From: a virus
Taxonomy: Duplodnaviria; Caudoviricetes
Virus record (IMG/VR): IMGVR_UViG_3300031851_000001
DNA: 64,000 nt
Direction: 5' to 3' (one strand)
How positions within the stretch are numbered: position 1 is the stretch's first letter; each line of letters begins with the position of its first letter. The notes below the pieces were generated by a model. The model did not search any database and was not told where the DNA came from. It saw only the letters and a list, made by a program, of their open reading frames with translations. This document shows, in pieces, positions 5,962 through 57,165 of the stretch. The position numbers and the translations under genes are program-made.

Positions 5962-6129
5962 ATGCCATACATATTACTTCGCAACAAGAGTGTGGTTCAG
6001 CATATTATAATGGTTGGACCAACAAACGATAACTTTAGAGAGTCAAAAGTAGTTGACTTAAAGTTTGAAACATTAGAGGCAGCCAATGAGGTTGCTGAAG
6101 TTTTGAAAGCTAAAGTAAAAGCAGCATAG
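5962..6129 (+). CDS. Small hypothetical protein (55 aa)
   Basis: Manual translation MPYILLRNKSVVQHIIMVGP...KAKVKAA; its TAG stop shares the first G of tRNA-Arg. Confidence 0.45.
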   Translation: MPYILLRNKSVVQHIIMVGPTNDNFRESKVVDLKFETLEAANEVAEVLKAKVKAA

Positions 6130-6206
6130 GTTCCTTAGCTCAGCCGGATTAGAGCAAGTGCCTTCTAAGCACTAGGTCGTAGGTTCGAGTCCTACAGGAA
6201 TCACCA
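6129..6206 (+). tRNA. tRNA-Arg(UCU)
   Basis: GGTTCCT/AGGAATC acceptor, AGTGC-CT TCT AA-GCACT anticodon arm, GTTCGAGTC T-loop, encoded CCA. Confidence 0.95.
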
Positions 6207-6215
6207 AATCAATAA

Positions 6216-6290
6216 TGGAACGTAGCATAATGGTAATGCATCGCTTTTTGGTAGCGCAGAGTATAGGTTCGAGTCCTATCGTTCCAGCCA
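6216..6290 (+). tRNA. tRNA-Gln(UUG)
   Basis: TGGAACG/CGTTCCA acceptor, anticodon loop TT TTG GT, GTTCGAGTC, encoded CCA. Confidence 0.9.
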
Positions 6291-6306
6291 AATAATAGGA
6301 AACAAA

Positions 6307-6489
6307 ATGTGGGTATTAGTCTTTATATATTTTTATGACTCAACACCATACGTAGAAACATATGACGTATATACTTCAATGACTGAATGCTTTAGAGGTA
6401 GAGAAGCATTGGCTGATGAAGTTGGAAAAGGCGCTGGGTATTTTAAACCCGGACAACAAGCAGTTTGCATAAACCTTCAGTCTACATAG
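6307..6489 (+). CDS. Hypothetical protein between tRNA genes
   Basis: 60-aa ORF with SD AGGAAA and two Cys. Confidence 0.55.
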   Translation: MWVLVFIYFYDSTPYVETYDVYTSMTECFRGREALADEVGKGAGYFKPGQQAVCINLQST

Positions 6490-6498
6490 AGACTGTTA

Positions 6499-6575
6499 GC
6501 CCGCGTGATGGAATTGGTATACATATTTGACTTAAAATCAAAGTTTTGCCGGTTCGAGTCCGGCCGCGGGTACCA
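6499..6575 (+). tRNA. tRNA-Leu(UAA) with short variable arm
   Basis: GCCCGCG/CGCGGGT acceptor, TTTGA-CT TAA AA-TCAAA, Leu-type D-arm, A73, encoded CCA. Confidence 0.9.
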
Positions 6576-7086
6576 ATACAGGAGAACGACGAATGCCAAT
6601 TAAATTTGATACTGGGTACTGTTTAATAGAAACGGCGTCGTCTTGATTCCCTCCGAGCACGGAATAATGTGGTTGGCCATTCACAATCTTGGTACTTACA
6701 TAGAATCCGACATGCCCTTGCCACCCACTATTCCCACGTGTAAAAATGACTACATCGCCTTGCTGAGGTTTATTAACTGGGTTTCCCCACTCTAAAAACG
6801 AACGAGCCATTAACGGATATTGGCTTACTTCAGAAGAAGTAGGGTGTCCGTTTTGCTCTAAAATCATATTGACAAACGCTGCACACCACTCAGTTGTTAC
6901 AGGATCTACACCAAGTAATTGGTAAATAATATTACGATCTTTTACTTCTTCGAGTTTATGGTATGCAAAGGCTTTGTGAGTTAATGTATGTTTAGTAGGG
7001 ATGTGTACGTGTTGTATAGGAACATTCTCACCTACACATCCTGACAAAAATAATAGTGTCGTAATTATAATAAATACATTTTTCAT
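6538..7086 (-). CDS. NlpC/P60-CHAP-like (TIGR02594-type) peptidoglycan amidase, probable lipoprotein
   Basis: Lipobox LSGC; catalytic WCAAFV and GHVGF; VLGGNQ. Confidence 0.75.
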   Translation of the reverse strand: MKNVFIIITTLLFLSGCVGENVPIQHVHIPTKHTLTHKAFAYHKLEEVKDRNIIYQLLGVDPVTTEWCAAFVNMILEQNGHPTSSEVSQYPLMARSFLEWGNPVNKPQQGDVVIFTRGNSGWQGHVGFYVSTKIVNGQPHYSVLGGNQDDAVSIKQYPVSNLIGIRRSPVLVPAAGLEPAKL

Positions 7087-7101
7087 ACAAGGTTATTTAT
7101 A

Positions 7102-8270: not shown

Positions 8271-8425
8271 TCAGATTTCCACATAGTCCAAGCACCCCAA
8301 GCAATCGCAACGCCTGCTGCAATTTTAGCCAATGGTGCCATAAATAAAATCATAAGACCAAGCGCAATACACACTCCGCCGTCCCATGTGGTTCTTTCTT
8401 TTAGTCTGTTTTTAATCCAGCTCAT
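8267..8425 (-). CDS. Small membrane protein (52 aa)
   Basis: Manual translation MSWIKNRLKERTTWDGGVCIALGLMILFMAPLAKIAAGVAIAWGAWTMWKSE; overlapping junctions both sides. Confidence 0.65.
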   Translation of the reverse strand: MSWIKNRLKERTTWDGGVCIALGLMILFMAPLAKIAAGVAIAWGAWTMWKSE

Positions 8426-8739
8426 TTTTTTGTTCCCTTCTGTCTAATAATCTTAGTATTAGATTTGGTTTCTAAGTGTTTTAGACGCATTTCCATATCG
8501 TCAATCTTTTGAGTGATTTTTGGATACTTTTTACGCCAAGCATTTTCCGGCTGCTCTAACCATGTCCAACCCCAACGTTCAACCAAGAAATCCATTCCTC
8601 TATCAAATCGAGCGTATAACCATAAAGCCATTCGCGTGGTGCTGAACCATGTCGAAAACGCGAGTCCAATAATAGACCCGCCTATCGCAGTATAGATCCA
8701 TAAACGATCTCCTGCCATATTAGATAACATTTCCCACAT
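8422..8739 (-). CDS. Hypothetical membrane-anchored protein
   Basis: N-terminal TM segment; coupled to neighbours. Confidence 0.6.
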   Translation of the reverse strand: MWEMLSNMAGDRLWIYTAIGGSIIGLAFSTWFSTTRMALWLYARFDRGMDFLVERWGWTWLEQPENAWRKKYPKITQKIDDMEMRLKHLETKSNTKIIRQKGTKK

Positions 8740-9470
8740 TATTCATTTCCCTTTGTATATTTACAATAATGGTTCATACCATGATCGTATGCTCCATCAA
8801 AAGGCATTCCTTTTTTCAGTGCCCTCCAACGACCTCTCCATTGGTCTTTAACTCGTTGCCATTTGGAAGCTTTTCTAATTTTTCCGTAGTAATTGATATA
8901 ACGCGGAGCGGTAGTATGTCTATACCCGAGGAATGCGAACGGTACTTTTGGTACGATATCATTATTGTTGACATGCCGATAGTGAGGAATATGATTAAAG
9001 CTTTTAACAAATTTTCGTGTTCCTGCTCTTGGAGATCCATATGTATATAACGCATCACATACGTCAGGCAGTCGGCTCGCTGCAATAGTAGCCATTGCTC
9101 CACCAAGTGAATGCCCAGTTATATAAAACATCTTTCCTTCTAATTTCATTTTTGCCATGGCTGTTCTAATTTCATCCCAGATTTTTTCAATTTCTGTTTG
9201 GAAACCATTATGAACATATCCATAGCCATTTGCTGCTTTATCTGGTAAAGCATTTAAGTCTGCTTTAATATCAGAAAACTCAGAAGGCTCAGTACCTCGG
9301 AAACATAATACTATTTCGCTTTTATTTGAAACGATATGAACTTGAGCTCCATCGTTTTCAATAAATTTGTGCGAAGTGTAACCAACTTTTTTATATGCAG
9401 CCTTGGCTTCTTTTCCATCCATATATGCTATTTGTGCGCATTGCGCCATTAATGAACATTTATTTTCCAT
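8739..9470 (-). CDS. Class 3 lipase (alpha/beta hydrolase)
   Basis: FRGT, VHNGF, GHSLGGA nucleophile elbow, DIVP, C-terminal DH. Confidence 0.88.
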   Translation of the reverse strand: MENKCSLMAQCAQIAYMDGKEAKAAYKKVGYTSHKFIENDGAQVHIVSNKSEIVLCFRGTEPSEFSDIKADLNALPDKAANGYGYVHNGFQTEIEKIWDEIRTAMAKMKLEGKMFYITGHSLGGAMATIAASRLPDVCDALYTYGSPRAGTRKFVKSFNHIPHYRHVNNNDIVPKVPFAFLGYRHTTAPRYINYYGKIRKASKWQRVKDQWRGRWRALKKGMPFDGAYDHGMNHYCKYTKGNE

Positions 9471-9663
9471 TTTGTCTATCCTTTAGAATGTCTTGCATTG
9501 TTTTAGTTGCAGTGTTTATAAACAGACGAGGTGCAATTGCATGTATTAATAATATAGGAACTAATCCTTGTAATTTAATAGCAGCTTTTACCGCGCCTTT
9601 TGCATGTTCTAAACCAGTTTCACCAACATCTTCTAGATGAGCTTTACATTTTTTACTAAACAT
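9460..9663 (-). CDS. Hypothetical protein
   Basis: 67 aa, HLEDVGETGLEH and IHAIAP motifs; coupled junctions. Confidence 0.6.
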   Translation of the reverse strand: MFSKKCKAHLEDVGETGLEHAKGAVKAAIKLQGLVPILLIHAIAPRLFINTATKTMQDILKDRQNGK

Positions 9664-9824
9664 TAATCTACCTTATCGTTATTGTAATGAGTTGGGTTTA
9701 AGCGCTCATCCATAATAGGTCCAACGTTTTCCCAGTAATTTTTACTCTTCATTACAGTTTCTTGGTATACATGGCAGACAATAGCTCCCATTACAACTCC
9801 TAGTACTAATAAAAACCATTTCAT
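9663..9824 (-). CDS. Small membrane-anchored protein (53 aa)
   Basis: Manual translation MKWFLLVLGVVMGAIVCHVYQE...; coupled junctions. Confidence 0.55.
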   Translation of the reverse strand: MKWFLLVLGVVMGAIVCHVYQETVMKSKNYWENVGPIMDERLNPTHYNNDKVD

Positions 9825-9973
9825 TTTAAGTATCCATCCCATGATCGTGCGTCTGTTTCTGTTTCTTTACATTTACATTTAGTACAAACATCGTTGTGGC
9901 ATTCATCACAATCTGGTCTATAACAATGACATTTATGTCCGCACGTTTGACATGTTCTTGATGGTCCTTGCAT
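9821..9973 (-). CDS. Cys/His-rich metallothionein-like microprotein (50 aa)
   Basis: MQGPSRTCQTCGHKCHCYRPDCDECHNDVCTKCKCKE...; 9 Cys and 3 His; SD AGGAG; not in ORF track. Confidence 0.7.
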   Translation of the reverse strand: MQGPSRTCQTCGHKCHCYRPDCDECHNDVCTKCKCKETETDARSWDGYLK

Positions 9974-9982
9974 ATGTTTCTC

Positions 9983-10678
9983 CTAGTTTGCTAACGGGTT
10001 GTCTAATGCTCTCTGTAATTTATTCATTAATGTTGTTTCGAGTTCAGTCATTTCTCTTTTGATTGATGATCTTAAAGCTTCGTTATCGCGTTCAACCTTA
10101 CCTTCCAAATCAGTCATACGACTGTCGTTGGAATCTCTAAGGTTGTTTGCTTTATTGTCGTATTGGTTTTGTAATGCATCACGTTTATTATCAAAACGTT
10201 CTTCAGCATTTTGAATTATTTGTCTTACGTCTGCTTCTAAATCTCGTACTAATTTTTCAACTCTTCTAACTTGCGCGTCCAAATTATTCATTTGGTCTCG
10301 AGTATCAACTTTGCCTTCTCTATTTCGTTTTTCAGCATCATCAATTTGTTTTTGAATTGCAGTTAACTGAATAGTAATTTCTTTATTAACATTTGCTAGT
10401 GATGCTTCTATTTCTTGATTTCTTGTTTCAATAACATCAACATCAATATTTCGCACAATCTCTTTCATGCCCATGTAATCATCATACACTTGGAAAGCGC
10501 CGTATAGTCCACCTAAAATAGAACTGATTAAAGCGAACAACATACCGATCGTTGTGGGAGTCATAGTAATACCTAAGAATTTCATCTTGGTATTTTTTAA
10601 ATTCTCTACCTCAGCTTCAAAATTCTCAATGCCTTCGCCTAAGTCTTTGTCGGCCATGTTGCTCTCCTTAGTTTTCAA
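9983..10678 (-). CDS. Single-TM coiled-coil protein of the exported-protein operon
   Basis: TM segment (IGMLFALISSILGGLYGAF) followed by long heptad-rich region. Confidence 0.7.
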   Translation of the reverse strand: MKTKESNMADKDLGEGIENFEAEVENLKNTKMKFLGITMTPTTIGMLFALISSILGGLYGAFQVYDDYMGMKEIVRNIDVDVIETRNQEIEASLANVNKEITIQLTAIQKQIDDAEKRNREGKVDTRDQMNNLDAQVRRVEKLVRDLEADVRQIIQNAEERFDNKRDALQNQYDNKANNLRDSNDSRMTDLEGKVERDNEALRSSIKREMTELETTLMNKLQRALDNPLAN

Positions 10679-11081
10679 ATCCAGAATTGCCGGACTCGTT
10701 TAATTTTCTTAGTTGTTCTAATTCTTGTTGTAGTTTTAAAACTTCTAATCTCTTTTTACGCAATTCTAATTGATATAATGAATTGCAATTAATTCTTTCT
10801 TTTGGTTTATCAAGTGGTATAGTAATTCGTGCATATACACCAACATCTTTTGTATCAGTTCCGCTGCCACTAAAGGGGCTTGAATAATTATCAATAACTC
10901 CAGTAACGCCAAACTCAAAATTCGTTGCACCACCAATAGAGTTTTTACAATCTAAATCTCCAGTACTAATACTATCTTGACCATACGTGGCACCCATCCC
11001 TGGGAGCGATAATCCTATAGAACTACTATCAGCATTCGCCATGCATGGCATCAACAATATACATGTTATAATACGTTTCAT
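10668..11081 (-). CDS. Exported protein with Cys-flanked beta-hairpin and C-terminal coiled coil
   Basis: Signal peptide; DLDC...NFEFGVTGVI...VGVYARITIPL...INC. Confidence 0.7.
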   Translation of the reverse strand: MKRIITCILLMPCMANADSSSIGLSLPGMGATYGQDSISTGDLDCKNSIGGATNFEFGVTGVIDNYSSPFSGSGTDTKDVGVYARITIPLDKPKERINCNSLYQLELRKKRLEVLKLQQELEQLRKLNESGNSGFEN

Positions 11082-11491
11082 TATTCACCAACCTTTTTCA
11101 CTCTAGAACAAATTCTTGAACTTACCGCAGTACGTATCGTATTGTCTTTTTTAAGTTTAGACTGAGAACAAATATATGTTACTATTTTTGCGTCTTGGTC
11201 TCTTATAAAAATATCAAACGAAACAGTACTTAAATAAGGTATCTTCCAAACTTTATATTGCGAAACAAATGGAATAGGTTTCCAATCTTCAGTGAATACA
11301 CCTATTTCATAATATTCAACGTCTGCTCTTTTATTAAACATAGTCATGGTAGTCTTCTGCAGCCCGTCTATATAGGAACCACTAATCTTAGGATAAGTTG
11401 GAACCATTTCGTGAGACGAGGCTGCAGCGGATATTGTAATCAAAACTATACTTATAACGAATATCAATCTTTTTTTCATAATCTTTTCCAC
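11081..11491 (-). CDS. Exported single Ig-domain protein, fimbrial-chaperone-like
   Basis: Signal peptide; TMTMFNKRADVEYYEIGVF...PIPF pattern reminiscent of the PapD N-domain. Confidence 0.5.
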   Translation of the reverse strand: MEKIMKKRLIFVISIVLITISAAASSHEMVPTYPKISGSYIDGLQKTTMTMFNKRADVEYYEIGVFTEDWKPIPFVSQYKVWKIPYLSTVSFDIFIRDQDAKIVTYICSQSKLKKDNTIRTAVSSRICSRVKKVGE

Positions 11492-11576
11492 CTTTATTTA
11501 AGAGCTCCAGTTATGGACACCCAGGCCATCTTCTACAACTTGCACCAGATGAACTTGAACTACTGCTCCCACCATT

Positions 11577-12092
11577 TCATTGAGCGATACACTCCGCTAC
11601 AACGATAGCCGTATAATTACCACCAGCGAAGGCTTTGTTACCACCCATAACTGCTGATGATGAAGTCTTAAACCAAGTTGATCCTGTCGCTGTTAGATCG
11701 TAGCGATCCATCATTCCAATTTCAACCTTGTTAGTTTCATAAGCACTCATACCTGTAGAGTCTGACACTGTTTGCACAACTGTATCACCAGTCCATGTTA
11801 CAACATCAGGTAAACTTGGTGCTGATGAAAAACTGCTTGGCGCAGTGATTTGGGCATAGTACGCATCAGCCAATGAAACATCAAAACGAATTACTGCTAA
11901 TTCACCACCGTCTGATGGTGTTGTAGTAAGAGTATACGCATTAGGGTTACCATATGTACCTGCAGTATCTGTTTGAATAACACAACGTGATTGTACTGTT
12001 CCGTTAATAGGCGTGTCGTTAGCTAAGACCATTGTTGAGGAAATTGTCATAGCTGCTATCGCACCTAATCCAAAAATCTTTTTACTTAACAT
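11577..12092 (-). CDS. Exported pilin/fimbrial-subunit-like protein
   Basis: Signal peptide; INGTVQSRC N-strand and GGNYTAIVVAEC C-strand; Ser/Thr-rich beta content. Confidence 0.55.
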   Translation of the reverse strand: MLSKKIFGLGAIAAMTISSTMVLANDTPINGTVQSRCVIQTDTAGTYGNPNAYTLTTTPSDGGELAVIRFDVSLADAYYAQITAPSSFSSAPSLPDVVTWTGDTVVQTVSDSTGMSAYETNKVEIGMMDRYDLTATGSTWFKTSSSAVMGGNKAFAGGNYTAIVVAECIAQ

Positions 12093-12106
12093 TTTTTGTC
12101 TCCTAA

Positions 12107-13024
12107 TTAATTGTTTAAATTATATTGCATACCAACCATTTGTTGGTGTAATAATTGCTGTGCGAGACCAACCCGTGCGCCGCTATTTGCATCAGGCATT
12201 TTACCATCGGGTATATTAATAACTTCGTTATATGTACCACCCGGTATAGTTACGTTAAGATAAGATCTATTCAATGCAGCTTGCGCAATGTCATTCATTA
12301 TACTAATTCGTTGATTTTCAGCAAAGTAAGTTGCGGTTTCTCCCGCAGCCATTGCATCTTCCAATCTCATTTTTGATCTCTTATCCTCTTTCATCTCAGC
12401 TTCTTTTCTACTATCAGCATCCTCTAAATCATCAGCGTCTTCTTGGACCTCTGCTTGATCGTTGAGTTCAACATCTCCATCTTTTGTCACGTCGTATATA
12501 TCGTCTAAATCATATTCTATTATTTCAGGAACTGGCTTTTTATATCCTGGGCAGTTTGGATCATATTGCGGATCATAACACGGTGTAACTTTATATGTAT
12601 AAACAACACTTGCGCCTTCAACCTTACCTTCTCCAACTACTTCAATACTTCCCATTCCCCATAGTTCTCTTGGTATATTACCTACAGGAACAGCTTTACT
12701 AATTTCCATACCGGATATAGAACCCGGCTTCCAATCATCTCTTTCTCTAAATATATATCCATTTCCATCTATTCTTTCATTCTGAACATAAACGGTTACC
12801 CATTCGCCAGTTTCTTTTTGTATCGTATAGCGGTATATTACGTTTTGTATATCAATCCCAGGAACCCCTTGTGGCAAAAGGTCAGGCATAGACCATTGTA
12901 AAGCTTGGTCTGCTACTGCATTTCCAGTATAACCATAATATGGCGCAATGCTCTTAGTCTCCTCAGAGGAAGAGTAAGAAGGCCAGAATGCCAGCGCCAA
13001 CAGCAGGAGCAACTTTTTCTGCAT
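12107..13024 (-). CDS. Exported protein with beta-rich N-domain and acidic linker
   Basis: Signal peptide; PCYDPQYDPNCPGY motif. Confidence 0.7.
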   Translation of the reverse strand: MQKKLLLLLALAFWPSYSSSEETKSIAPYYGYTGNAVADQALQWSMPDLLPQGVPGIDIQNVIYRYTIQKETGEWVTVYVQNERIDGNGYIFRERDDWKPGSISGMEISKAVPVGNIPRELWGMGSIEVVGEGKVEGASVVYTYKVTPCYDPQYDPNCPGYKKPVPEIIEYDLDDIYDVTKDGDVELNDQAEVQEDADDLEDADSRKEAEMKEDKRSKMRLEDAMAAGETATYFAENQRISIMNDIAQAALNRSYLNVTIPGGTYNEVINIPDGKMPDANSGARVGLAQQLLHQQMVGMQYNLNN

Positions 13025-13550
13025 CTATAGGTCCCATTAATTTAAGTTCTTTTTTAGTTTCTGCTACGTGAGTTTCCCAACCAAGTTTGGCAGCCTCACC
13101 AATTTGTCCATCGTACGGGCAGGGTGTTCCGGCTTGCATCATTGCGTCAAAAACACCAGTATCCTGACACATCACGGATACCGCTGCCACCTTCATTCCC
13201 ATATCATATAATGTTTTTGCATTCTTTAATCTCTGACAATTTTCTTCAGTGAATGTACCACCACCAGAAATACCTAGGATCTGCGTTTGAACCGCAGCTG
13301 ATACGCCGATAGTACATAAGTCCGTATTATTGCCTGCTGAAAATTGTGGGGAGATTGCTGTAGGAGGTGGTTGGTTAATTGTAGTTTCCATCGTACCAGT
13401 AGAATTGATATTACTGTCAGTACCTGATTTTGTACATACGTAACCTGTTGGACATTCAACATCTTCTGCTGAAGCTATCGTTCCCATAGTAATGAAAATC
13501 GCGATCAAACATATTGCGTATAACCATACCATTGCTTTTTTAACAAACAT
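12963..13550 (-). CDS. Exported/membrane-anchored Cys-containing protein
   Basis: Signal peptide; PPTAISP, DLC-hairpin-ENC, C-terminal TM segment. Confidence 0.7.
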   Translation of the reverse strand: MFVKKAMVWLYAICLIAIFITMGTIASAEDVECPTGYVCTKSGTDSNINSTGTMETTINQPPPTAISPQFSAGNNTDLCTIGVSAAVQTQILGISGGGTFTEENCQRLKNAKTLYDMGMKVAAVSVMCQDTGVFDAMMQAGTPCPYDGQIGEAAKLGWETHVAETKKELKLMGPIDAEKVAPAVGAGILAFLLFL

Positions 13551-13616
13551 AATCTTTCTCCAAATTAATACATGCGATTAAGGCACAACCGCGCAGCCAA
13601 ATTTTGCTATTCCTTT

Positions 13617-13628
13617 TATTTATAAATA
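13617..13628. promoter_or_regulatory. Bidirectional T4-type late promoter (palindrome TATTTATAAATA)
   Basis: TATAAATA on both strands between divergent genes. Confidence 0.7.
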
Positions 13629-16064: not shown

Positions 16065-16141
16065 CAGGGTGTAGCTCAGTATGGTAGAGTGTCGCACTTG
16101 GAATGCGAAGGTCGTTGGTTCAAGTCCAGCTACCCTGACCA
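16065..16141 (+). tRNA. tRNA-Pro(UGG)
   Basis: CAGGGTG/TACCCTG acceptor, TCGCA-CT TGG AA-TGCGA, GTTCAAGTC, encoded CCA. Confidence 0.95.
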
Positions 16142-30720: not shown

Positions 30721-30861
30721 TTGACATTGTTTGAAAACCGTATATAATAGATTTATCTACTAAACAATAATAATAGTTGTTATAATGGCTGTAACAAAAT
30801 AGTAACAGTATTTTTATTAAAATGGAAATCTATTGACATTTTAGCTCTACTGTATTATATA
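30721..30861 (+). promoter_or_regulatory. Two tandem sigma70-type promoters upstream of tmRNA
   Basis: TTGACA(30721)-16-TATAAT and TTGACA(30833)-17-TATATA. Confidence 0.7.
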
Positions 30862-30867
30862 TAACTA

Positions 30868-31150
30868 GTGAACGTTGAAATGACGTGAATACGGATCGGA
30901 CCTCGGGGCAGTACCGAGCATCTCCACCAAATTTACTCTGTAGGGTAAAAACTGATAATTTACTTTGTAGAGTAAATTTGATGGGGATGAACAAGGATCG
31001 ACGGACGGAATAGCTTAATGGAGTTCATCGGGTGATCGCGTATAGATCAATTAAACTAAATGCAAATGAAAATTTCGCACCATCTGGATTTGCTCTAGCA
31101 GCATAATCACAGGGGGGTTGTCCACTTACCTAGCAACAGAAAAGTGGTAC
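30868..31150 (+). ncRNA. ssrA: Circularly permuted (two-piece) tmRNA, alphaproteobacterial type
   Basis: Acceptor piece with T-arm CTCGG-GGCAGTA-CCGAG and CATCTCC-A-CCA (ends 30929); intervening hairpin 30930-30982; coding piece starts GGGGATG (30983) giving G3-U70; tag ORF 31062-31106 ANENFAPSGFALAA*. Confidence 0.93.
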
Positions 31151-31181
31151 TTAATAAAACTATTACAAGGAAAAAGGTAAC

Positions 31182-31970
31182 ATGGGTAAATTCTTATTAA
31201 CAACGGCACTAACTTTGGTAGCCGGTGCAGCGATTGCACAGGAAGTAACCGAAGCACCAGTAGGATTAACTGGTAAAATTGAAACAGTAATTGCTGAAGG
31301 TGCTGGTGGAGATTGGGGTGCAACGTCATCTTTTGATCTTGGCGTATCTGCAGGATCTGGCTTAGCATCAGGTTCTATGTCTTTCGTCGTTGACTCAAAT
31401 AACGATTTGGCTTTAGACGAATATTCAATCGGTACATCAATCGGTGGAACTGAATTGTCATTTGGAGACCAAGGCAATATTTGGATTGACACAGAAAACG
31501 GTTCTTCTATTGAAGAAGCAAAGATTGCTGATGAAAGCATTCAAGCAACTATCGCAGGTGTATCAGTAGCAGCCGGCTTAAACATGGATGATTTAACTGA
31601 CATTCAAAACGTACAAGCTGGTTACGGTATTCCATTAGGAATTGCTAACATCAACGCAGTAGGTGACTATAACCTAAACAGTGAATCATGGATTGTAGCA
31701 GGTCGCGCAGACACAGACGGTATGTTGGAAAATGTACGTATCGGTGGTGCAGTATCATACGGTTCAATTTCAGAAAAACTTGGCTTTGAAGCTGACGCTA
31801 CAGTAGGACCATTAACTGGTTATATTGGCGGTGACCAAGATGATCTAATGAAAGATGCAGGCGTTAATGGTGAAGTTGCTGTTGCAGGTATCGATGTAGA
31901 AACTAAATTGAACTATAACTTTGACAGTGAAGAATTAACACCATCAGTTGGTTTAAGTTTCAACTTCTAA
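31182..31970 (+). CDS. Outer-membrane porin-like beta-barrel protein
   Basis: Signal peptide, alternating amphipathic strands, C-terminal VGLSFNF. Confidence 0.75.
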   Translation: MGKFLLTTALTLVAGAAIAQEVTEAPVGLTGKIETVIAEGAGGDWGATSSFDLGVSAGSGLASGSMSFVVDSNNDLALDEYSIGTSIGGTELSFGDQGNIWIDTENGSSIEEAKIADESIQATIAGVSVAAGLNMDDLTDIQNVQAGYGIPLGIANINAVGDYNLNSESWIVAGRADTDGMLENVRIGGAVSYGSISEKLGFEADATVGPLTGYIGGDQDDLMKDAGVNGEVAVAGIDVETKLNYNFDSEELTPSVGLSFNF

Positions 31971-54608: not shown

Positions 54609-55457
54609 GTGATTACTTTAGAACAATTTAGTGCAATGATTCCTTCAAATAAAGATCCCGAGGCTTGGTACGAAGCAGCGGTTCCGATGTTTGAAAAATA
54701 TGAAATCAATACAAATAATCGTATCGCTGGCTTTATGGCACAATGTGCACATGAGTCATTAGACTTTACCCGCTTAGTAGAAAATCTTAATTATTCAGAA
54801 AAAGCATTGAACTCAGTGTTTGGTCGTTATTTTGGAAAAGGAAAACGTGATGCAAAGGAATATGCAAGAGACCAAGAAAAAATCGCAAACTATGTCTACC
54901 AAGATGAGTTTAGATCCAAACGAGGAGCCTTGGGAAACGTTAATCCCGGCGATGGCTGGCTCTTTAGGGGTAGAGGTATCAAGCAGCTTACAGGAAGAAA
55001 TAATTACGCACAATTTGGAAGTTCAATCGACATAAGTGCTGAGGAAGCTGCTGAATATGTATCAACACCAAAAGGCGCTCTCGAGTCTGCTTGTTGGTTT
55101 TGGTCTACTAATAAATTAGAAAAGTGGGCTGACAAAGGTGACAATAAAGGTTTAACCAAAAAGATTAATGGTGGTACAATTGGATTAGAAGATCGTAATC
55201 GCCGTTGGGACGAAGCGTTAGCAATCCTTGGTGGTAAAGTACCAGCTCCTAAGAAAACAACAAAAGGCGCAGTACGTACTCTACGTAAAGGTATGCAAGG
55301 CGATGACGTTAAGAAAATGCAAAAAGCAATTGGCGTAGCAGCTGACGGCGATTTTGGATTTGGAACTCTTACCGCCGTAAAGAAATGGCAAAATGTAAAT
55401 GGATTAGTTGCTGATGGCATTGTAGGTCCTGCTACCCAGACTAAAATGTTTAAATAG
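54609..55457 (+). CDS. GH19 endolysin with C-terminal peptidoglycan-binding domain
   Basis: FMAQCAHES, FRGRGIKQLTG, INGG..GLEDR; C-terminal DGDFG...DGIVG. Confidence 0.9.
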   Translation: MITLEQFSAMIPSNKDPEAWYEAAVPMFEKYEINTNNRIAGFMAQCAHESLDFTRLVENLNYSEKALNSVFGRYFGKGKRDAKEYARDQEKIANYVYQDEFRSKRGALGNVNPGDGWLFRGRGIKQLTGRNNYAQFGSSIDISAEEAAEYVSTPKGALESACWFWSTNKLEKWADKGDNKGLTKKINGGTIGLEDRNRRWDEALAILGGKVPAPKKTTKGAVRTLRKGMQGDDVKKMQKAIGVAADGDFGFGTLTAVKKWQNVNGLVADGIVGPATQTKMFK

Positions 55458-55495
55458 ATAAATAGAATATAGAAATCAACCAAAAGGAGATAGAA

Positions 55496-55864
55496 ATGTC
55501 TTTAGAAAAAATTATCAAAGAAGCGTTGGATAAAAATCCATTGGAAATGAAAGACGCATTCGCAGAAGAAATGGCAACACGTATTGCCGCTGCTTTAGAA
55601 GAAAAATATAAATCAGCTTTAAAAGAAGATTTAGAAGAAGCAAAAGACGACGATGATGAAGACGAAGATGATGATGATGACGATGACGACGACGACGATT
55701 CTGACGACGACGATGACTCGGACGACGACGCTAAAATCGGCGCTGACATGAAAAAATTAAATGCATCTTGCACAAAAACAGAAATGTATGGTAAGATGAA
55801 AGAAAAGTATGGCTGTTCAAAAGGAAAATTTGAAGGTCTATACGCATCATATTGCTCAAAGTAA
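55496..55864 (+). CDS. Acidic prohead-core-like protein with poly-Asp tract
   Basis: DAFAEEMATRIAAALE helix plus D-rich run, reminiscent of T4 gp67. Confidence 0.5.
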   Translation: MSLEKIIKEALDKNPLEMKDAFAEEMATRIAAALEEKYKSALKEDLEEAKDDDDEDEDDDDDDDDDDDSDDDDDSDDDAKIGADMKKLNASCTKTEMYGKMKEKYGCSKGKFEGLYASYCSK

Positions 55865-55876
55865 TAAGGTGTCAGG

Positions 55877-56320
55877 ATGGCTAAACTATATCTATTAATT
55901 ATTGTCTGTGGTTTATTTGCAGGTGTAGGATATGGTGCCAAACAGTATTACGATTGGTCTGAGGAAACGATAAGCGTTCTTCGGACCAATAACGTTAAAC
56001 TAGTAGCGGCTACTGAAACATTACAAAATACTGTGGACACAATGGTTGCCGATGCCCAGAGAAACGAAAAATTAAACCAAAATCTTACAAAACAATTAGC
56101 AGAGTCGCGTGAGTATTTAAATACATTGCGTAACAAATTTGCTCGCATTGATTTAGACATGGAAGCGTTAACTGACCCTGTTGATCTAGAAGAAAGAGTA
56201 CAGAATGCAGTTAACAAACTTATTGACGAAATCGCCGAAGATACTACTCCTCCTTCCGATGTTGATGATACTGACGGGGTGTCTGAGCCAACCGGAACCA
56301 GTAGTGGTAACTCAGACTGA
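55877..56320 (+). CDS. Inner-membrane spanin (Rz-like)
   Basis: N-terminal TM plus coiled coil; overlaps downstream lipoprotein. Confidence 0.7.
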   Translation: MAKLYLLIIVCGLFAGVGYGAKQYYDWSEETISVLRTNNVKLVAATETLQNTVDTMVADAQRNEKLNQNLTKQLAESREYLNTLRNKFARIDLDMEALTDPVDLEERVQNAVNKLIDEIAEDTTPPSDVDDTDGVSEPTGTSSGNSD

Positions 56321-56579
56321 ATATCAAAAACAAAATATCCCAATACAAGAGAGACCGCCTTTAGTTGACTTCCCTCCTATGGAGTGGATGGTTATTACTG
56401 AGGATAACCTTGACGAAAAAGTAAATGAGCTCAAAGGTAAAAATGGAAATTTTGTAGTATTTGCTATTAGCTCAAAAGGTTATGAAAACCTTGCTATTGG
56501 TATTGGAGAATTGCGAAGATATATAAACGAACAAAAAGCAATAATTGTCTATTATGAAGAGGCGTTGCGTGATAAATAG
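56205..56579 (+). CDS. Outer-membrane spanin lipoprotein (Rz1-like)
   Basis: Lipobox LTGC, Pro-rich segment, overlap with i-spanin. Confidence 0.7.
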   Translation: MQLTNLLTKSPKILLLLPMLMILTGCLSQPEPVVVTQTEYQKQNIPIQERPPLVDFPPMEWMVITEDNLDEKVNELKGKNGNFVVFAISSKGYENLAIGIGELRRYINEQKAIIVYYEEALRDK

Positions 56580-56673
56580 TAGCGTATACAAATTATATTA
56601 TTTTAAGTGATTAAGTTAATCATGGAGTTCGCCACTAGCCTCCGTTATCAAAAGGCATTAAAGGAATAATATT

Positions 56674-57165
56674 TTGGCTACAGAAAAAAATTGGGAAACC
56701 GATATACGGTTAATCCAAAGTGATATTAAACAAATTCAAAAGTTCTTTAACAAGGTTGAAACATCAATGGATGTTATGGTTGACCTTAGCAAGAACGTAG
56801 CTGTTCAATCAGAAGTAATTGCTTTTACTAAAGAAAAGCTTGAAGAAATTGAAAGAACAGTAGACGAAACGCGAAAAACTGAAGATTTACGTTTGCAAGT
56901 ATTGAGCGATAGGCTCGAAGAATATAGGCGATCGTCACGTGGTGACCATGAAAAACTTGCTCAGCACAACGCTGAAAAACGAGCTATGAGTAATAAAGAA
57001 ATACTCGAAAAGCTTGAAATCATGGAGCGTGGTTTGCATTCTCGTATTAACGATCAAACAAAAAAGATTTCAACATTGGAAAACTGGCGTTACTATATCA
57101 TGGGTGTAAGTGCTGTTATTATGTTTTTCTTTGCTAAATGGTCTTGGCCTGATCTATTTGGTTGA
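56674..57165 (+). CDS. Coiled-coil protein with C-terminal TM (possible holin)
   Basis: Heptad-rich body, LENWRYYIMG plus TM. Confidence 0.5.
   Translation: MATEKNWETDIRLIQSDIKQIQKFFNKVETSMDVMVDLSKNVAVQSEVIAFTKEKLEEIERTVDETRKTEDLRLQVLSDRLEEYRRSSRGDHEKLAQHNAEKRAMSNKEILEKLEIMERGLHSRINDQTKKISTLENWRYYIMGVSAVIMFFFAKWSWPDLFG

What the first reader, a model, noticed from the sequence alone, without database searches (positions are those of the whole stretch)
9983..13628. Late six-gene operon of exported proteins resembling a pilus system without an usher
Seen: six co-oriented, tightly packed ORFs behind a late promoter, five with signal peptides and one with an N-terminal TM. They comprise a pilin-like subunit (NGTVQSRC...GNYTAIVVAEC), a single-domain chaperone-like protein, a Cys-motif adhesin candidate, a TM coiled-coil protein, and two proteins sharing a Cys-beta-hairpin-Cys-helix layout (DLC...ENC; DLDC...INC). 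No large usher beta-barrel is present. Inference: the hairpin proteins could oligomerise into a minimal outer-membrane pore, so the phage may build a surface fibre on infected cells (adhesion, aggregation, superinfection exclusion) or a virion appendage. I know of no characterised system matching this layout.
Basis: partly seen in the sequence, partly recalled or inferred. Interest (0 to 1): 0.82.

Follow-up and report, generated by a model that had tools for sequence, protein, structure and literature searches.

The report
Exported six-gene phage envelope cassette
A marine T4-like phage carries a highly conserved late operon of six proteins sent to the host cell envelope, one with a pilus-subunit-like fold; it fits no described system and in related phages sits beside the cell-bursting genes, so it probably acts on the envelope at lysis and does not build a classical pilus.

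Summary
Six co-oriented minus-strand genes (9983-13550) lie behind a T4-type late promoter. Five have signal peptides and one has an N-terminal membrane anchor. All 80 related viral contigs examined carry part or all of the set, always with P1-P5 in this order.

The pilus reading is only partly supported. P3 folds like Csu/SCPU-type pilus subunits (TM 0.56-0.59). P4 is a single Ig-like sandwich that matches chaperone N-domains no better than fibronectin domains. No member hits pilin or chaperone sequence families. No usher exists in two complete relatives, and the two "hairpin" proteins show no detectable homology.

New findings:
- The operon is a composite of two modules that also travel separately: P1-P2-P6 in SAR11/Roseobacter podophages and P3-P4-P5 in Vibrio siphophages.
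- In relatives it abuts the spanin and endolysin genes. 33 of 80 loci have a cell-wall hydrolase within 4 kb, and a lipase often interleaves.
- The window has its own endolysin and spanin pair at 54.6-56.6 kb, so the cassette is an accessory and does not replace the spanins.

Best reading (0.42): a periplasmic envelope complex that works with lysis.

The scan flagged the same operon and the P1-P2-P6 trio on other genomes. No literature was found.

The parts
13617..13624 (-). T4-type late promoter TATAAATA, 67 nt upstream of the P1 start
   Evidence: The octamer is conserved upstream of P1 in 49 of 71 related loci, against 2.9% of background windows. The late-promoter meaning rests on established T4 biology.
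12963..13550 (-). P1, 195 aa: signal peptide, PPP(S/T)A motif, very conserved Cys-rich core (residues about 75-145), hydrophobic C-terminal anchor
   Evidence: PHROG phrog_20531, E 1.7e-14. The core has at least 8000 metagenomic homologues; the best 120 listed are 83-100% identical. Homologues occur in SAR11, Roseobacter and Ralstonia phages. The C-terminal hydrophobic tail is present in 75 of 75 relatives.
12107..13024 (-). P2, 305 aa: signal peptide, N-terminal beta-rich domain ending in a PC..(P)Q..P.CPGY motif, acidic stalk, conserved C-terminal LH..M...QY helix
   Evidence: No Pfam hit. The same architecture and C-terminal motif occur in HTVC115P gp53.
11577..12092 (-). P3, 171 aa: signal peptide, conserved mature N-terminus P-I-x-G-x-V-Q-S-R-C, beta-sandwich whose first and last strands each carry one of two conserved Cys; Csu/SCPU-pilin-like fold
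   Evidence: Model pLDDT 86. Fold matches; features. 1409 close homologues. Only 105 clusters in 1.84 billion representatives and no bacterial pilins. The Cys pair is present in 81 of 81.
11081..11479 (-). P4, 132 aa: signal peptide, mature N-terminus H-E-M-x-P-T-Y-P, single Ig/FnIII-like beta-sandwich with a conserved Cys pair, basic pI
   Evidence: Alignment. Model pLDDT 79.5. Fold matches; features. The HE[MFL]xP motif is present in 70 of 81 but absent from the Vibrio-phage homologues.
10668..11081 (-). P5, 137 aa: signal peptide (not a lipoprotein), Cys-bracketed beta unit, C-terminal charged coiled-coil helix
   Evidence: phrog_37374, E 5.8e-8. Conserved motifs. Lipobox in 0 of 80. Atlas gives only unnamed viral clusters. 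Homologues lie next to P3-like and P4-like genes in Vibrio phages.
9983..10678 (-). P6, 231 aa (the true start may be the ATG 21 nt downstream): N-terminal TM anchor at residues 37-62, long periplasmic coiled coil, conserved C-terminal ..LQ.AL.NPLAN tail
   Evidence: The tail is conserved in 74 of 76. Homologues occur in HTVC115P gp49 (E 3e-14) and in a freshwater podovirus.
8422..9973 (-). Co-directional genes downstream of P6, often linked to the cassette: Cys-rich 50-aa peptide, 59-aa TM protein, DUF6356 protein, class-3 lipase (8739-9470), 105-aa TM protein with a charged C-terminus (8422-8739)
   Evidence: Lipase and the 105-aa protein occur in 23 of 80 related loci, and in 11 of them lie between P5 and P6. 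In a complete relative they follow the spanin pair.

Best explanation
The six ORFs are real genes. They form one conserved, late-transcribed cassette of Sec-exported or membrane-anchored proteins in an uncultured marine T4-like phage.

The cassette is a composite of two sub-modules that also occur on their own in other phages:
- Sub-module A is P1 (Cys-rich periplasmic domain held by a C-terminal membrane anchor), P2 (beta domain, acidic stalk, conserved C-terminal helix) and P6 (N-terminal membrane anchor, long coiled coil, conserved NPL tail).
- Sub-module B is P3 (Csu/SCPU-pilin-like beta-sandwich), P4 (a single Ig-like sandwich) and P5 (a Cys-bracketed beta unit plus a coiled-coil helix).

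Proposed mechanism. During the late period the six proteins accumulate in the periplasm and assemble into an inner-membrane-anchored envelope complex. This complex works together with, not instead of, the phage's endolysin and spanin genes; no holin was identified. It might loosen the links between outer membrane, wall and inner membrane, set where or when the envelope gives way, or deal with the debris. P3 is probably the repeated building block and P4 its partner.

Shown: the genes, export signals, late promoter, extreme conservation, composite origin, fold class of P3 and P4, and the lysis-gene neighbourhood.

Inferred: that the six proteins bind one another, that they stay in the periplasm, and that they act at lysis.
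For: 1. Reality and linkage. P1-P5 keep one order in all 80 related IMG/VR loci, and P6 is found in 75. The flanks vary, and 35 loci share no other window gene within 6 kb. Relatives with only 25-45% P3 identity still carry all six, once with P6 moved.

2. Late timing. TATAAATA lies upstream of P1 in the window and in 49 of 71 loci, against 2.9% of background windows.

3. Composite origin. P1-like, P2-like and P6-like genes sit together in Pelagibacter phage HTVC115P, and P1-like plus P6-like genes in a freshwater podovirus. P3-, P4- and P5-like genes are consecutive in four Vibrio phages examined, from three genome-size classes.

4. Lysis neighbourhood.
- In loci L028, L053 and L054 the order is (i-spanin) o-spanin, T4-type lysozyme, P1...P6, all co-directional, with the lysozyme 7-39 nt from P1.
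- The spanin pair lies 0 to 0.8 kb upstream of P1 in L064, L075 and L079.
- 33 of 80 loci have a wall hydrolase of one of three unrelated families within 4 kb: signal-peptide SleB-like Hydrolase_2 in 22, CHAP in 6 (a lipoprotein in the window's copy), T4 lysozyme in 5.
- Lipase_3 and a small TM protein occur in 23 loci, and in 11 of them lie between P5 and P6. In a complete relative the same pair follows the spanins.
- In podophages P1-like genes sit one to four genes from lysozyme or M15 peptidase. In Vibrio phages the trio lies 0.6-3 kb upstream of holin and M15 endolysin.

5. Slow evolution. P1 averages 69%, P3 69% and P5 64% identity across the loci, against about 34-39% for the spanin pair between the window and a relative with 60% P3 identity. 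This points to many constrained contacts.

6. Contigs identical to parts of the operon occur in four RNA libraries. This is suggestive only.
Against: The window phage already has a full-looking set of lysis genes 41 kb away: an endolysin at 54609-55457 and an overlapped i-/o-spanin pair at 55877-56579. No lysis step is therefore visibly missing.

In the window the cassette is not next to those genes.

Adjacency in T4-like hyperplastic regions and at the tail-fibre/lysis junction of siphophages and podophages is also where exclusion genes and morons collect, so neighbourhood cannot separate lysis from receptor masking.

The 80 loci are related phages, so the counts are not independent events.

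No protein-protein contact was demonstrated. Four of the six proteins were not folded. No experiment exists.
Confidence: 0.42

Rival explanations
1. Usher-independent pilus-like fibre or coat. P3 is a donor-strand pilin descended from archaic Csu/SCPU subunits and P4 is a stripped-down chaperone. P3 polymerises on the cell surface, in the periplasm, or only once lysis releases it. The fibre would serve adhesion, aggregation of host cells, or coating of debris.
For: - Four searches place P3 nearest to SCPU/Csu or other chaperone-usher pilins.
- P4's best named structural matches include SafB and FimC N-domains (weak feature lead).
- The P3-P4 adjacency is conserved in two very different phage groups.
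- P3's conserved mature N-terminus (I-x-G-x-V before the first Cys) has the alternating pattern of a donor strand, as I recall it for Csu and Pap subunits. That comparison is from memory and was not tested.
- P3 conservation of 60-100% fits a polymer with tight packing.
Against: - No P3 or P4 family member hits the SCPU, Fimbrial, DUF4402 or PapD_N profiles.
- A profile search of 1.84 billion proteins found no bacterial pilin.
- P4 has one domain, not two, and ties with FnIII folds.
- No usher or other outer-membrane pore candidate exists in two complete relatives.
- The all-against-PDB aligner puts Gram-positive adhesin Ig domains level with or above pilins, best Z 7.7, which is not distinctive.
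- The AlphaFold monomer model of P3 aligns as a sandwich over residues 34-171. I could not inspect whether a strand is missing.
Confidence: 0.22
2. Superinfection exclusion or receptor masking. The exported proteins bind or cover host envelope receptors late in infection, so that other phages are blocked or progeny are not lost on the debris. Phage T5 Llp and the Cor proteins act this way.
For: - In the four Vibrio phages examined the P3-P4-P5 trio directly follows the large tail-fibre-like genes and is accompanied by a small lipoprotein. By established knowledge of T5 and phi80-type phages, that is the classic position of Llp/Cor-type genes.
- P1-like genes in podophages also lie just after tail genes.
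- All six proteins are exported.
Against: - Exclusion proteins are usually early and fast-evolving with the receptor. This cassette is late and unusually conserved across phages with different flanks.
- In the T4-like clade it is nowhere near tail-fibre genes.
- No PADLOC or known exclusion family matches.
- Six proteins including two membrane anchors is heavy machinery for masking.
Confidence: 0.15
3. Spanin substitute. P6 (inner-membrane coiled coil) with P2 or P5 replaces the Rz/Rz1-type spanin complex and fuses or breaks the outer membrane.
For: P6 has the i-spanin architecture and a conserved C-terminal tail. Earlier scan notes on other genomes proposed this for the P1-P2-P6 trio. Those are unchecked AI notes.
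Against: - The window and its relatives carry a canonical overlapped spanin pair: phrog_739 and phrog_812, lipobox LTGC, at window 55877-56579. It sits directly beside the cassette in some loci.
- No lipoprotein partner is encoded in the operon, and P5 has a lipobox in 0 of 80.
- Vibrio phage 1.205.O carries the trio, and beside its own endolysin it has genes annotated as a TM-helix protein and a membrane lipoprotein, a possible spanin pair.
Confidence: 0.05
4. There is no joint function. The six are independent exported accessory genes that are merely co-inherited in a hyperplastic region, or are virion parts whose hydrophobic N-termini are not signal peptides.
For: T4-like genomes hold many small genes of unknown function in such regions. 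No interaction among the six was shown.
Against: - The order of P1-P5 is invariant while the flanks are shuffled.
- All six are retained at 25-45% identity.
- The sub-modules travel as trios in unrelated phages.
- The N-termini behave as cleaved signal peptides, with conserved disulfide pairs. That is incompatible with cytoplasmic virion assembly.
Confidence: 0.08

Closest known systems
Archaic (Csu-type, SCPU domain PF05229) chaperone-usher pili of Acinetobacter and relatives
   Same: P3 is an exported beta-sandwich of about 145 residues. Its nearest named folds are SCPU and Csu-type fimbrial proteins (TM 0.56-0.59; AFDB E 1e-4 to 1e-3). It is followed by an exported Ig-like protein, P4, that superposes on chaperone N-domains (Z 8.3-8.6).
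   Different: - No sequence-profile membership.
- P4 has one domain instead of PapD_N plus PapD_C.
- No usher and no tip adhesin.
- The P3 disulfide joins the first and last strands.
- The genes are phage-borne, late-expressed and embedded among lysis genes.
Two-component spanins (lambda Rz/Rz1; T4 PseT.3/PseT.2; PHROGs 739 and 812)
   Same: P6 is an N-terminally anchored periplasmic coiled coil with a conserved C-terminal tail. In several relatives the cassette lies directly beside endolysin and spanin genes, and it is late-expressed.
   Different: - No outer-membrane lipoprotein partner.
- Six proteins, not two.
- A canonical spanin pair coexists in the same genome, so the cassette is not the spanin.
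- It evolves far more slowly than the spanins.
Receptor-blocking exclusion lipoproteins encoded next to tail-fibre genes (T5 Llp, phi80/T1-type Cor)
   Same: The products are exported. In the four Vibrio phages examined the P3-P5 trio plus a small lipoprotein sits immediately after the tail-fibre-like genes.
   Different: Those are single small lipoproteins that are expressed early. Here there is a six-protein late operon with no lipoprotein in the T4-like version, and no sequence or family match.
Mycobacteriophage LysB-type accessory lysis esterases
   Same: A signal-less class-3 lipase (window 8739-9470) travels with the cassette and with the spanins in relatives. It is an extra lysis-time enzyme aimed at envelope lipids.
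   Different: This concerns the neighbouring gene, not the six. It belongs to a different esterase family, the host is Gram-negative, and activity is untested.

Membership tests
Chaperone-usher pilus system | Outer-membrane usher (PF00577) | tested here: not met
   No usher-sized ORF lies in the operon. PF00577 is absent from two complete related genomes and from Vibrio phage Brizo, while the control rang in E. coli.
Chaperone-usher pilus system | Two-domain periplasmic chaperone (PapD_N PF00345 plus PapD_C) | tested here: not met
   Mature P4 is about 110 residues and forms one sandwich. No PF00345 hit occurs in 26 family members at E up to 5 or in complete relatives. Only fold-level likeness to the N-domain, tied with FnIII.
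Chaperone-usher pilus system | Pilin subunit with an incomplete Ig fold completed by a donor strand | tested here: inconclusive
   The fold class matches and the conserved N-terminal segment is unstructured in the monomer model. Coordinates could not be inspected and no oligomer model was obtained.
SCPU / spore coat protein U domain (PF05229) | Match to the family profile above threshold | tested here: not met
   0 of 33 P3-family members hit PF05229, PF14352 or PF00419 at E up to 5. A profile search of 1.84 billion proteins returned 105 clusters, mostly short fragments, none recognisable as a bacterial pilin; the library carries no names.
SCPU / spore coat protein U domain (PF05229) | Shared three-dimensional fold | tested here: met
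   Atlas TM 0.59/0.59 over 143 residues and 0.56/0.57 over 139. Six of the top 14 AFDB clusters are SCPU at E 4e-4 to 1.2e-3. Both sides are predictions, and the PDB-wide Z of 7.7 is not distinctive.
Two-component spanin | i-spanin: N-terminal TM domain plus periplasmic coiled coil | tested here: met
   P6 has a TM at residues 37-62 followed by coiled-coil-type matches only. It has no PHROG spanin hit.
Two-component spanin | o-spanin: small outer-membrane lipoprotein encoded within, overlapping or next to the i-spanin gene | tested here: not met
   No lipobox ORF lies on the operon strand, and P5 has a lipobox in 0 of 80.
Two-component spanin | Being the genome's spanin equivalent | tested here: not met
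   A canonical overlapped pair lies at window 55877-56320 and 56205-56579: phrog_739 E 1.8e-6 and phrog_812 E 5.6e-12.
T4-type late gene | TATAAATA late promoter upstream | tested here: met
   Actual timing was not measured.
Known anti-phage defence / exclusion families (PADLOC) | Match to any model | tested here: not met
   Only coiled-coil noise for P6.

The most novel reading that the evidence does not exclude
Phages of marine Alpha- and Gammaproteobacteria encode a minimal, usher-free descendant of archaic chaperone-usher pili. P3 subunits are held by a one-domain chaperone (P4) in the periplasm and polymerise by donor-strand exchange there or on release. In T4-like phages this is coupled to an inner-membrane-anchored trio (P1-P2-P6) and to the lysis machinery. 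That would be a new class of phage-built envelope or extracellular polymer whose assembly is triggered by lysis.
Probability: 0.2. Interest if true: 0.85.

Novelty: categorically new. Interest (0 to 1): 0.62.

Why it matters
The cassette is abundant. P3 has 1409 close homologues and the P1 core at least 8000 in public metagenomes. Near-identical DNA occurs in about a dozen independent marine studies.

It is among the slowest-evolving parts of its genome region, yet none of its six proteins belongs to a described family.

It offers a concrete, testable addition to the holin-endolysin-spanin picture of how phages handle the Gram-negative envelope. It may also be the first phage-borne relative of pilus subunits.

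The P3-P5 sub-module exists in cultured Vibrio phages whose hosts are tractable (V. campbellii/harveyi BAA-1116), so its function can be tested directly.

If the module affects burst timing, debris binding or cell aggregation, it bears on viral mortality and carbon flow in the ocean.

Tried and rejected
- Complex prediction of mature P3 with mature P4 gave no verdict: score 0.71, but an unrelated control scored 0.72. It is evidence neither for nor against binding.
- Copper-binding idea for P4 (a first-residue His as in YcnI/CopC). The HE motif is missing from the Vibrio-phage homologues. No Pfam hit. The only-Cu SOD match is low in the list. Dropped.
- P1/P5 shared domain. hhalign aligns only the signal peptides.
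- Regulatory hairpin in the 85-nt P3-P4 spacer. Folding z-score is -0.46. No internal promoter or terminator exceeds chance.
- Sequence searches that gave nothing useful: megablast of the region against 50,697 phage records; tblastn of P3 against the same; PDB sequence profiles for P3 and P4; NCBIfam; PADLOC.
- P5 in the Atlas returned only unnamed viral clusters.
- Cluster names for NCBI-sourced homologues: none.
- T-type holin PF11031 and Rz PF03245 are absent from two complete relatives. The positive control worked in Brizo for the holin.
- The whole genome of the window is not held.
- Literature searches (pelagiphage plus spanin; marine T4-like fimbrial; spore coat protein U plus bacteriophage; HTVC115P) found no description of these genes.
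- RNA-library contigs match the operon exactly, but contigs cannot prove transcription, strand or level.

Full report
**What is there.**
On the minus strand between 13550 and 9983 lie six ORFs, here called P1 to P6.
- P1: 12963-13550, 195 aa.
- P2: 12107-13024, 305 aa.
- P3: 11577-12092, 171 aa.
- P4: 11081-11479, 132 aa. The GTG at 11491 is less likely, because the Atlas and all homologues start at the ATG.
- P5: 10668-11081, 137 aa.
- P6: 9983-10678, 231 aa.

The genes overlap or are up to 14 nt apart, except for an 85-nt P3-P4 spacer. Hydrophobicity analysis gives N-terminal signal-like segments for P1-P5, a TM segment at residues 37-62 of P6, and a second hydrophobic stretch at the extreme C-terminus of P1. 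In family alignments the N-termini vary in sequence but stay hydrophobic and end at A-x-A-type sites before an invariant mature start. Each of P3, P4 and P5 keeps a conserved Cys pair. Both features fit periplasmic proteins.

The window is a T4-like phage, with topoisomerase II subunits, gp41-like helicase, gp61-like primase and NrdAB. It carries tRNAs and a tmRNA. The octamer TATAAATA lies 67 nt upstream of P1. It is found within 200 nt upstream of P1 in 49 of 71 related loci, against 2.9% of background windows. By established T4 biology this marks late transcription.

**Is it a unit?**
P3 has 1409 homologues with E at or below 0.001; the best 120 listed are at least 70% identical. All are unnamed and come from marine metagenomes.

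In 80 IMG/VR loci, P1-P2-P3-P4-P5 always occur in this order and P6 is found in 75. The flanks differ. In 35 loci no other gene of the window's neighbourhood lies within 6 kb. In 11 loci a lipase and a small TM protein sit between P5 and P6, and in 5 loci a nuclease does.

Two contigs with only 25% and 45% P3 identity still carry all six genes, once with P6 moved ahead of P3. Invariant content with shuffled surroundings argues for a functional module.

Mean identities across the loci are P1 69%, P3 69%, P5 64%, P4 56%, P2 50% and P6 46%.

**It is a composite.**
P1's core occurs in cultured SAR11 and Roseobacter podophages, in pelagimyophage Mosig, in Ralstonia phage RSP15 and in a freshwater podovirus.
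- In HTVC115P the P1-like gene is followed by a 466-aa exported protein. That protein has P2's architecture (beta domain, long acidic stalk) and its C-terminal motif (H-x2-[LM]-V-x2-Q-Y). A P6 homologue follows shortly after, at E 3e-14.
- The freshwater podovirus has P1-like and P6-like genes together as well.
- None of these phages has P3, P4 or P5.

Conversely, P3-, P4- and P5-like genes lie consecutively, in the same order, in Vibrio phages. P3-like genes occur in 179 Vibrio phage records of three genome-size classes: T5-like Thalassavirus of about 120-128 kb, an 83-85 kb group, and 58-60 kb siphophages including a Queuovirinae member. The full trio was confirmed in the four phages examined. 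There a small lipoprotein accompanies the trio, and no P1, P2 or P6 is present.

The six-gene operon is therefore sub-module A (P1, P2, P6) with sub-module B (P3, P4, P5) inserted between P2 and P6.

**The pilus reading.**
P3 was modelled with pLDDT 86. Its nearest named neighbours are consistently pilus subunits of the chaperone-usher world.
- Language-model features give SCPU 0.95 and SEF14, CS1 and EcpA 0.92-0.93.
- The top PDB rows from Foldseek are FimF, FimG, the PapG pilin domain, CsuE, CsuA/B, CfaB, Caf1 and CupE. All are at E 4e-3 to 6e-2 with TM 0.3-0.48.
- AFDB clusters give SCPU/FanG, DUF4402 and WxL at E 1e-4 to 1e-3.
- The Atlas gives SCPU and Csu-type fimbrial protein at TM 0.56-0.59 over about 140 residues.

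An aligner run against all PDB clusters puts Gram-positive adhesin and pilin Ig domains on top at Z 7.7, which does not stand out.

At sequence level there is no membership. None of 33 family members touches the SCPU, DUF4402 or Fimbrial profiles. A family profile searched against 1.84 billion proteins found only 105 clusters, mostly short fragments, and none recognisable as a bacterial pilin; that library carries no names.

P4 (pLDDT 79.5) is one Ig/FnIII-like sandwich.
- SafB and FimC N-domains are among its best matches (Z 8.6 and 8.3) but tie with fibronectin type III domains.
- In the Atlas, FimC is the first named row at TM 0.50, against 0.57 for fn3.
- Foldseek gave nothing significant.
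- PapD_N is not hit by any of 26 members.

No usher or PapD_N gene exists in two complete related genomes. P5 is never a lipoprotein.

In sum, P3 works or folds like an archaic pilin, and the P3-P4 pair may descend from a subunit-chaperone pair. The set nevertheless fails every defining test of a chaperone-usher system.

**The neighbourhood points to lysis.**
Using the relatives' own genes as probes, I found the following.
- In L028, L053 and L054 the order is (i-spanin) o-spanin, T4-type lysozyme, P1, P2, P3, P4, P5, (an EF-hand TM protein), P6. All are co-directional, and the lysozyme ends 7-39 nt before P1. The spanins and lysozyme are confirmed by PHROG 739 and 812 and by PF00959.
- In L064, L075 and L079 the spanin pair lies 0 to 0.8 kb upstream of P1.
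- 33 of 80 loci have a wall hydrolase within 4 kb, drawn from three unrelated families. A SleB-like Hydrolase_2 with a signal peptide occurs in 22 (PF07486, E 2e-22), on either side and in either orientation. A CHAP protein occurs in 6, twice directly after P6. A T4 lysozyme occurs in 5.
- An unbiased clustering of all flank ORFs ranks lipase_3, the 105-aa TM protein and the SleB-like hydrolase as the commonest neighbours.
- In the complete relative G002 the lipase and the TM protein follow the spanin pair, 20 kb from the cassette. This ties them to lysis independently.
- In podophages the P1-like gene is one to four genes from lysozyme or M15 peptidase.
- In Vibrio phages the trio lies between the tail-fibre-like genes and a T-type holin plus M15 endolysin.

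**But it is not the spanin.**
The window itself has an endolysin at 54609-55457 (phrog_181, E 4e-68, with PG_binding_1). It also has an overlapped spanin pair at 55877-56320 and 56205-56579, with a lipobox L-T-G-C.

The 'spanin substitute' idea, raised for the P1-P2-P6 trio in earlier notes of this scan on other genomes, therefore does not hold here. The cassette is an addition to a complete-looking endolysin and spanin set.

**Best explanation and its limits.**
I read the cassette as a late, periplasmic, inner-membrane-anchored envelope complex that acts alongside lysis (confidence 0.42).
- P6 and P1 would be the anchors.
- P2 would be a stalked arm reaching the wall or outer membrane.
- P3 would be the abundant beta-sandwich unit, partnered by P4.
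- P5 would be a coiled-coil adaptor to P6.

The unusually slow evolution of P1, P3 and P5 relative to the spanins suggests many fixed contacts or a conserved host target.

All contacts and the site and time of action are inferred.

The tail-fibre/lysis junction where the sub-modules sit in small phages is also where exclusion genes gather, so a receptor- or debris-masking role cannot be excluded (0.15). Neither can a true P3 polymer (0.22). These readings are not mutually exclusive.

**Expression and spread.**
Near-identical DNA occurs in about a dozen independent marine DNA studies. Contigs identical to parts of the operon occur in four RNA libraries. This is compatible with transcription but does not prove it.

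**Novelty.**
No paper in the searchable library describes these genes. The scan itself has seen the same six-gene operon in other genomes (first-reader notes) and the P1-P2-P6 trio several times with follow-ups.

New in this report:
- the composite structure of the operon;
- the fold evidence for P3 and P4;
- the Vibrio-phage trio;
- the quantified link to three hydrolase families, lipase and spanins;
- the demonstration that canonical spanins coexist with the cassette.

Noticed in passing
window 6538-7086 (-), promoter 7094-7101: A 182-aa lipoprotein (lipobox L-S-G-C) with a CHAP / TIGR02594 NlpC-P60-like domain, behind its own TATAAATA. It is a candidate Sec-exported, lipid-anchored wall hydrolase. 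In two relatives its homologue directly follows P6.
   Followed up: partly
window 54609-57165 (+): A canonical lysis block: GH19-like endolysin with PG_binding_1 (54609-55457), an extremely acidic 122-aa protein, an overlapped i-/o-spanin pair (55877-56320, 56205-56579), then a 163-aa coiled-coil protein with a C-terminal TM segment that could be a holin or regulator.
   Followed up: partly
window 8422-9470 (-); G002 69550-71183: A signal-less class-3 lipase and a 93-105-aa TM protein with a charged C-terminus (holin-like) travel as a pair. They lie after the six genes here, between P5 and P6 in 11 loci, and right after the spanins in a complete relative. This may be a LysB-like accessory lysis enzyme for a Gram-negative host.
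   Followed up: partly
L054 7296-7634; L028 6474-6812: A 112-aa protein with an EF-hand-like Ca-binding loop followed by hydrophobic, probably membrane-spanning segments sits between P5 and P6 in some relatives. Its family occurs in 17 of the 80 loci.
   Followed up: no
window 9821-9973 (-); L100 1146-1283: A 50-aa peptide with nine Cys and no signal peptide follows P6. In complete relative G002 its homologue lies two genes upstream of the T4-type lysozyme instead.
   Followed up: no
L005 3666-4517 (Vibrio phage Brizo MK895508): The deposited annotation truncates the P4-like and P5-like ORFs (gp139, gp140). gp141 is a 67-aa lipoprotein conserved after the trio in all four Vibrio phages examined. 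gp143 is a T4 T-type holin, PF11031 E 2e-50.
   Followed up: partly
window 11547 (P3-P4 spacer): One RNA-library contig carries a 27-nt insertion made of GATGAACTT-like 9-mers in the spacer. This is a length polymorphism of a short repeat.
   Followed up: no
proteins P0148 and P0434: Close homologues of P4 and P1 are recorded on a contig of 558,504 bases, far larger than the 150-220 kb of the other carriers. It could be a very large phage, a host scaffold or a chimeric assembly.
   Followed up: no
window 30837-31197 and 6129-6575, 16065-16141: A phage-borne tmRNA with tag ANENFAPSGFALAA, of a type I recall from Alphaproteobacteria (not checked here), and four tRNA genes. They give a hint to the host.
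   Followed up: no
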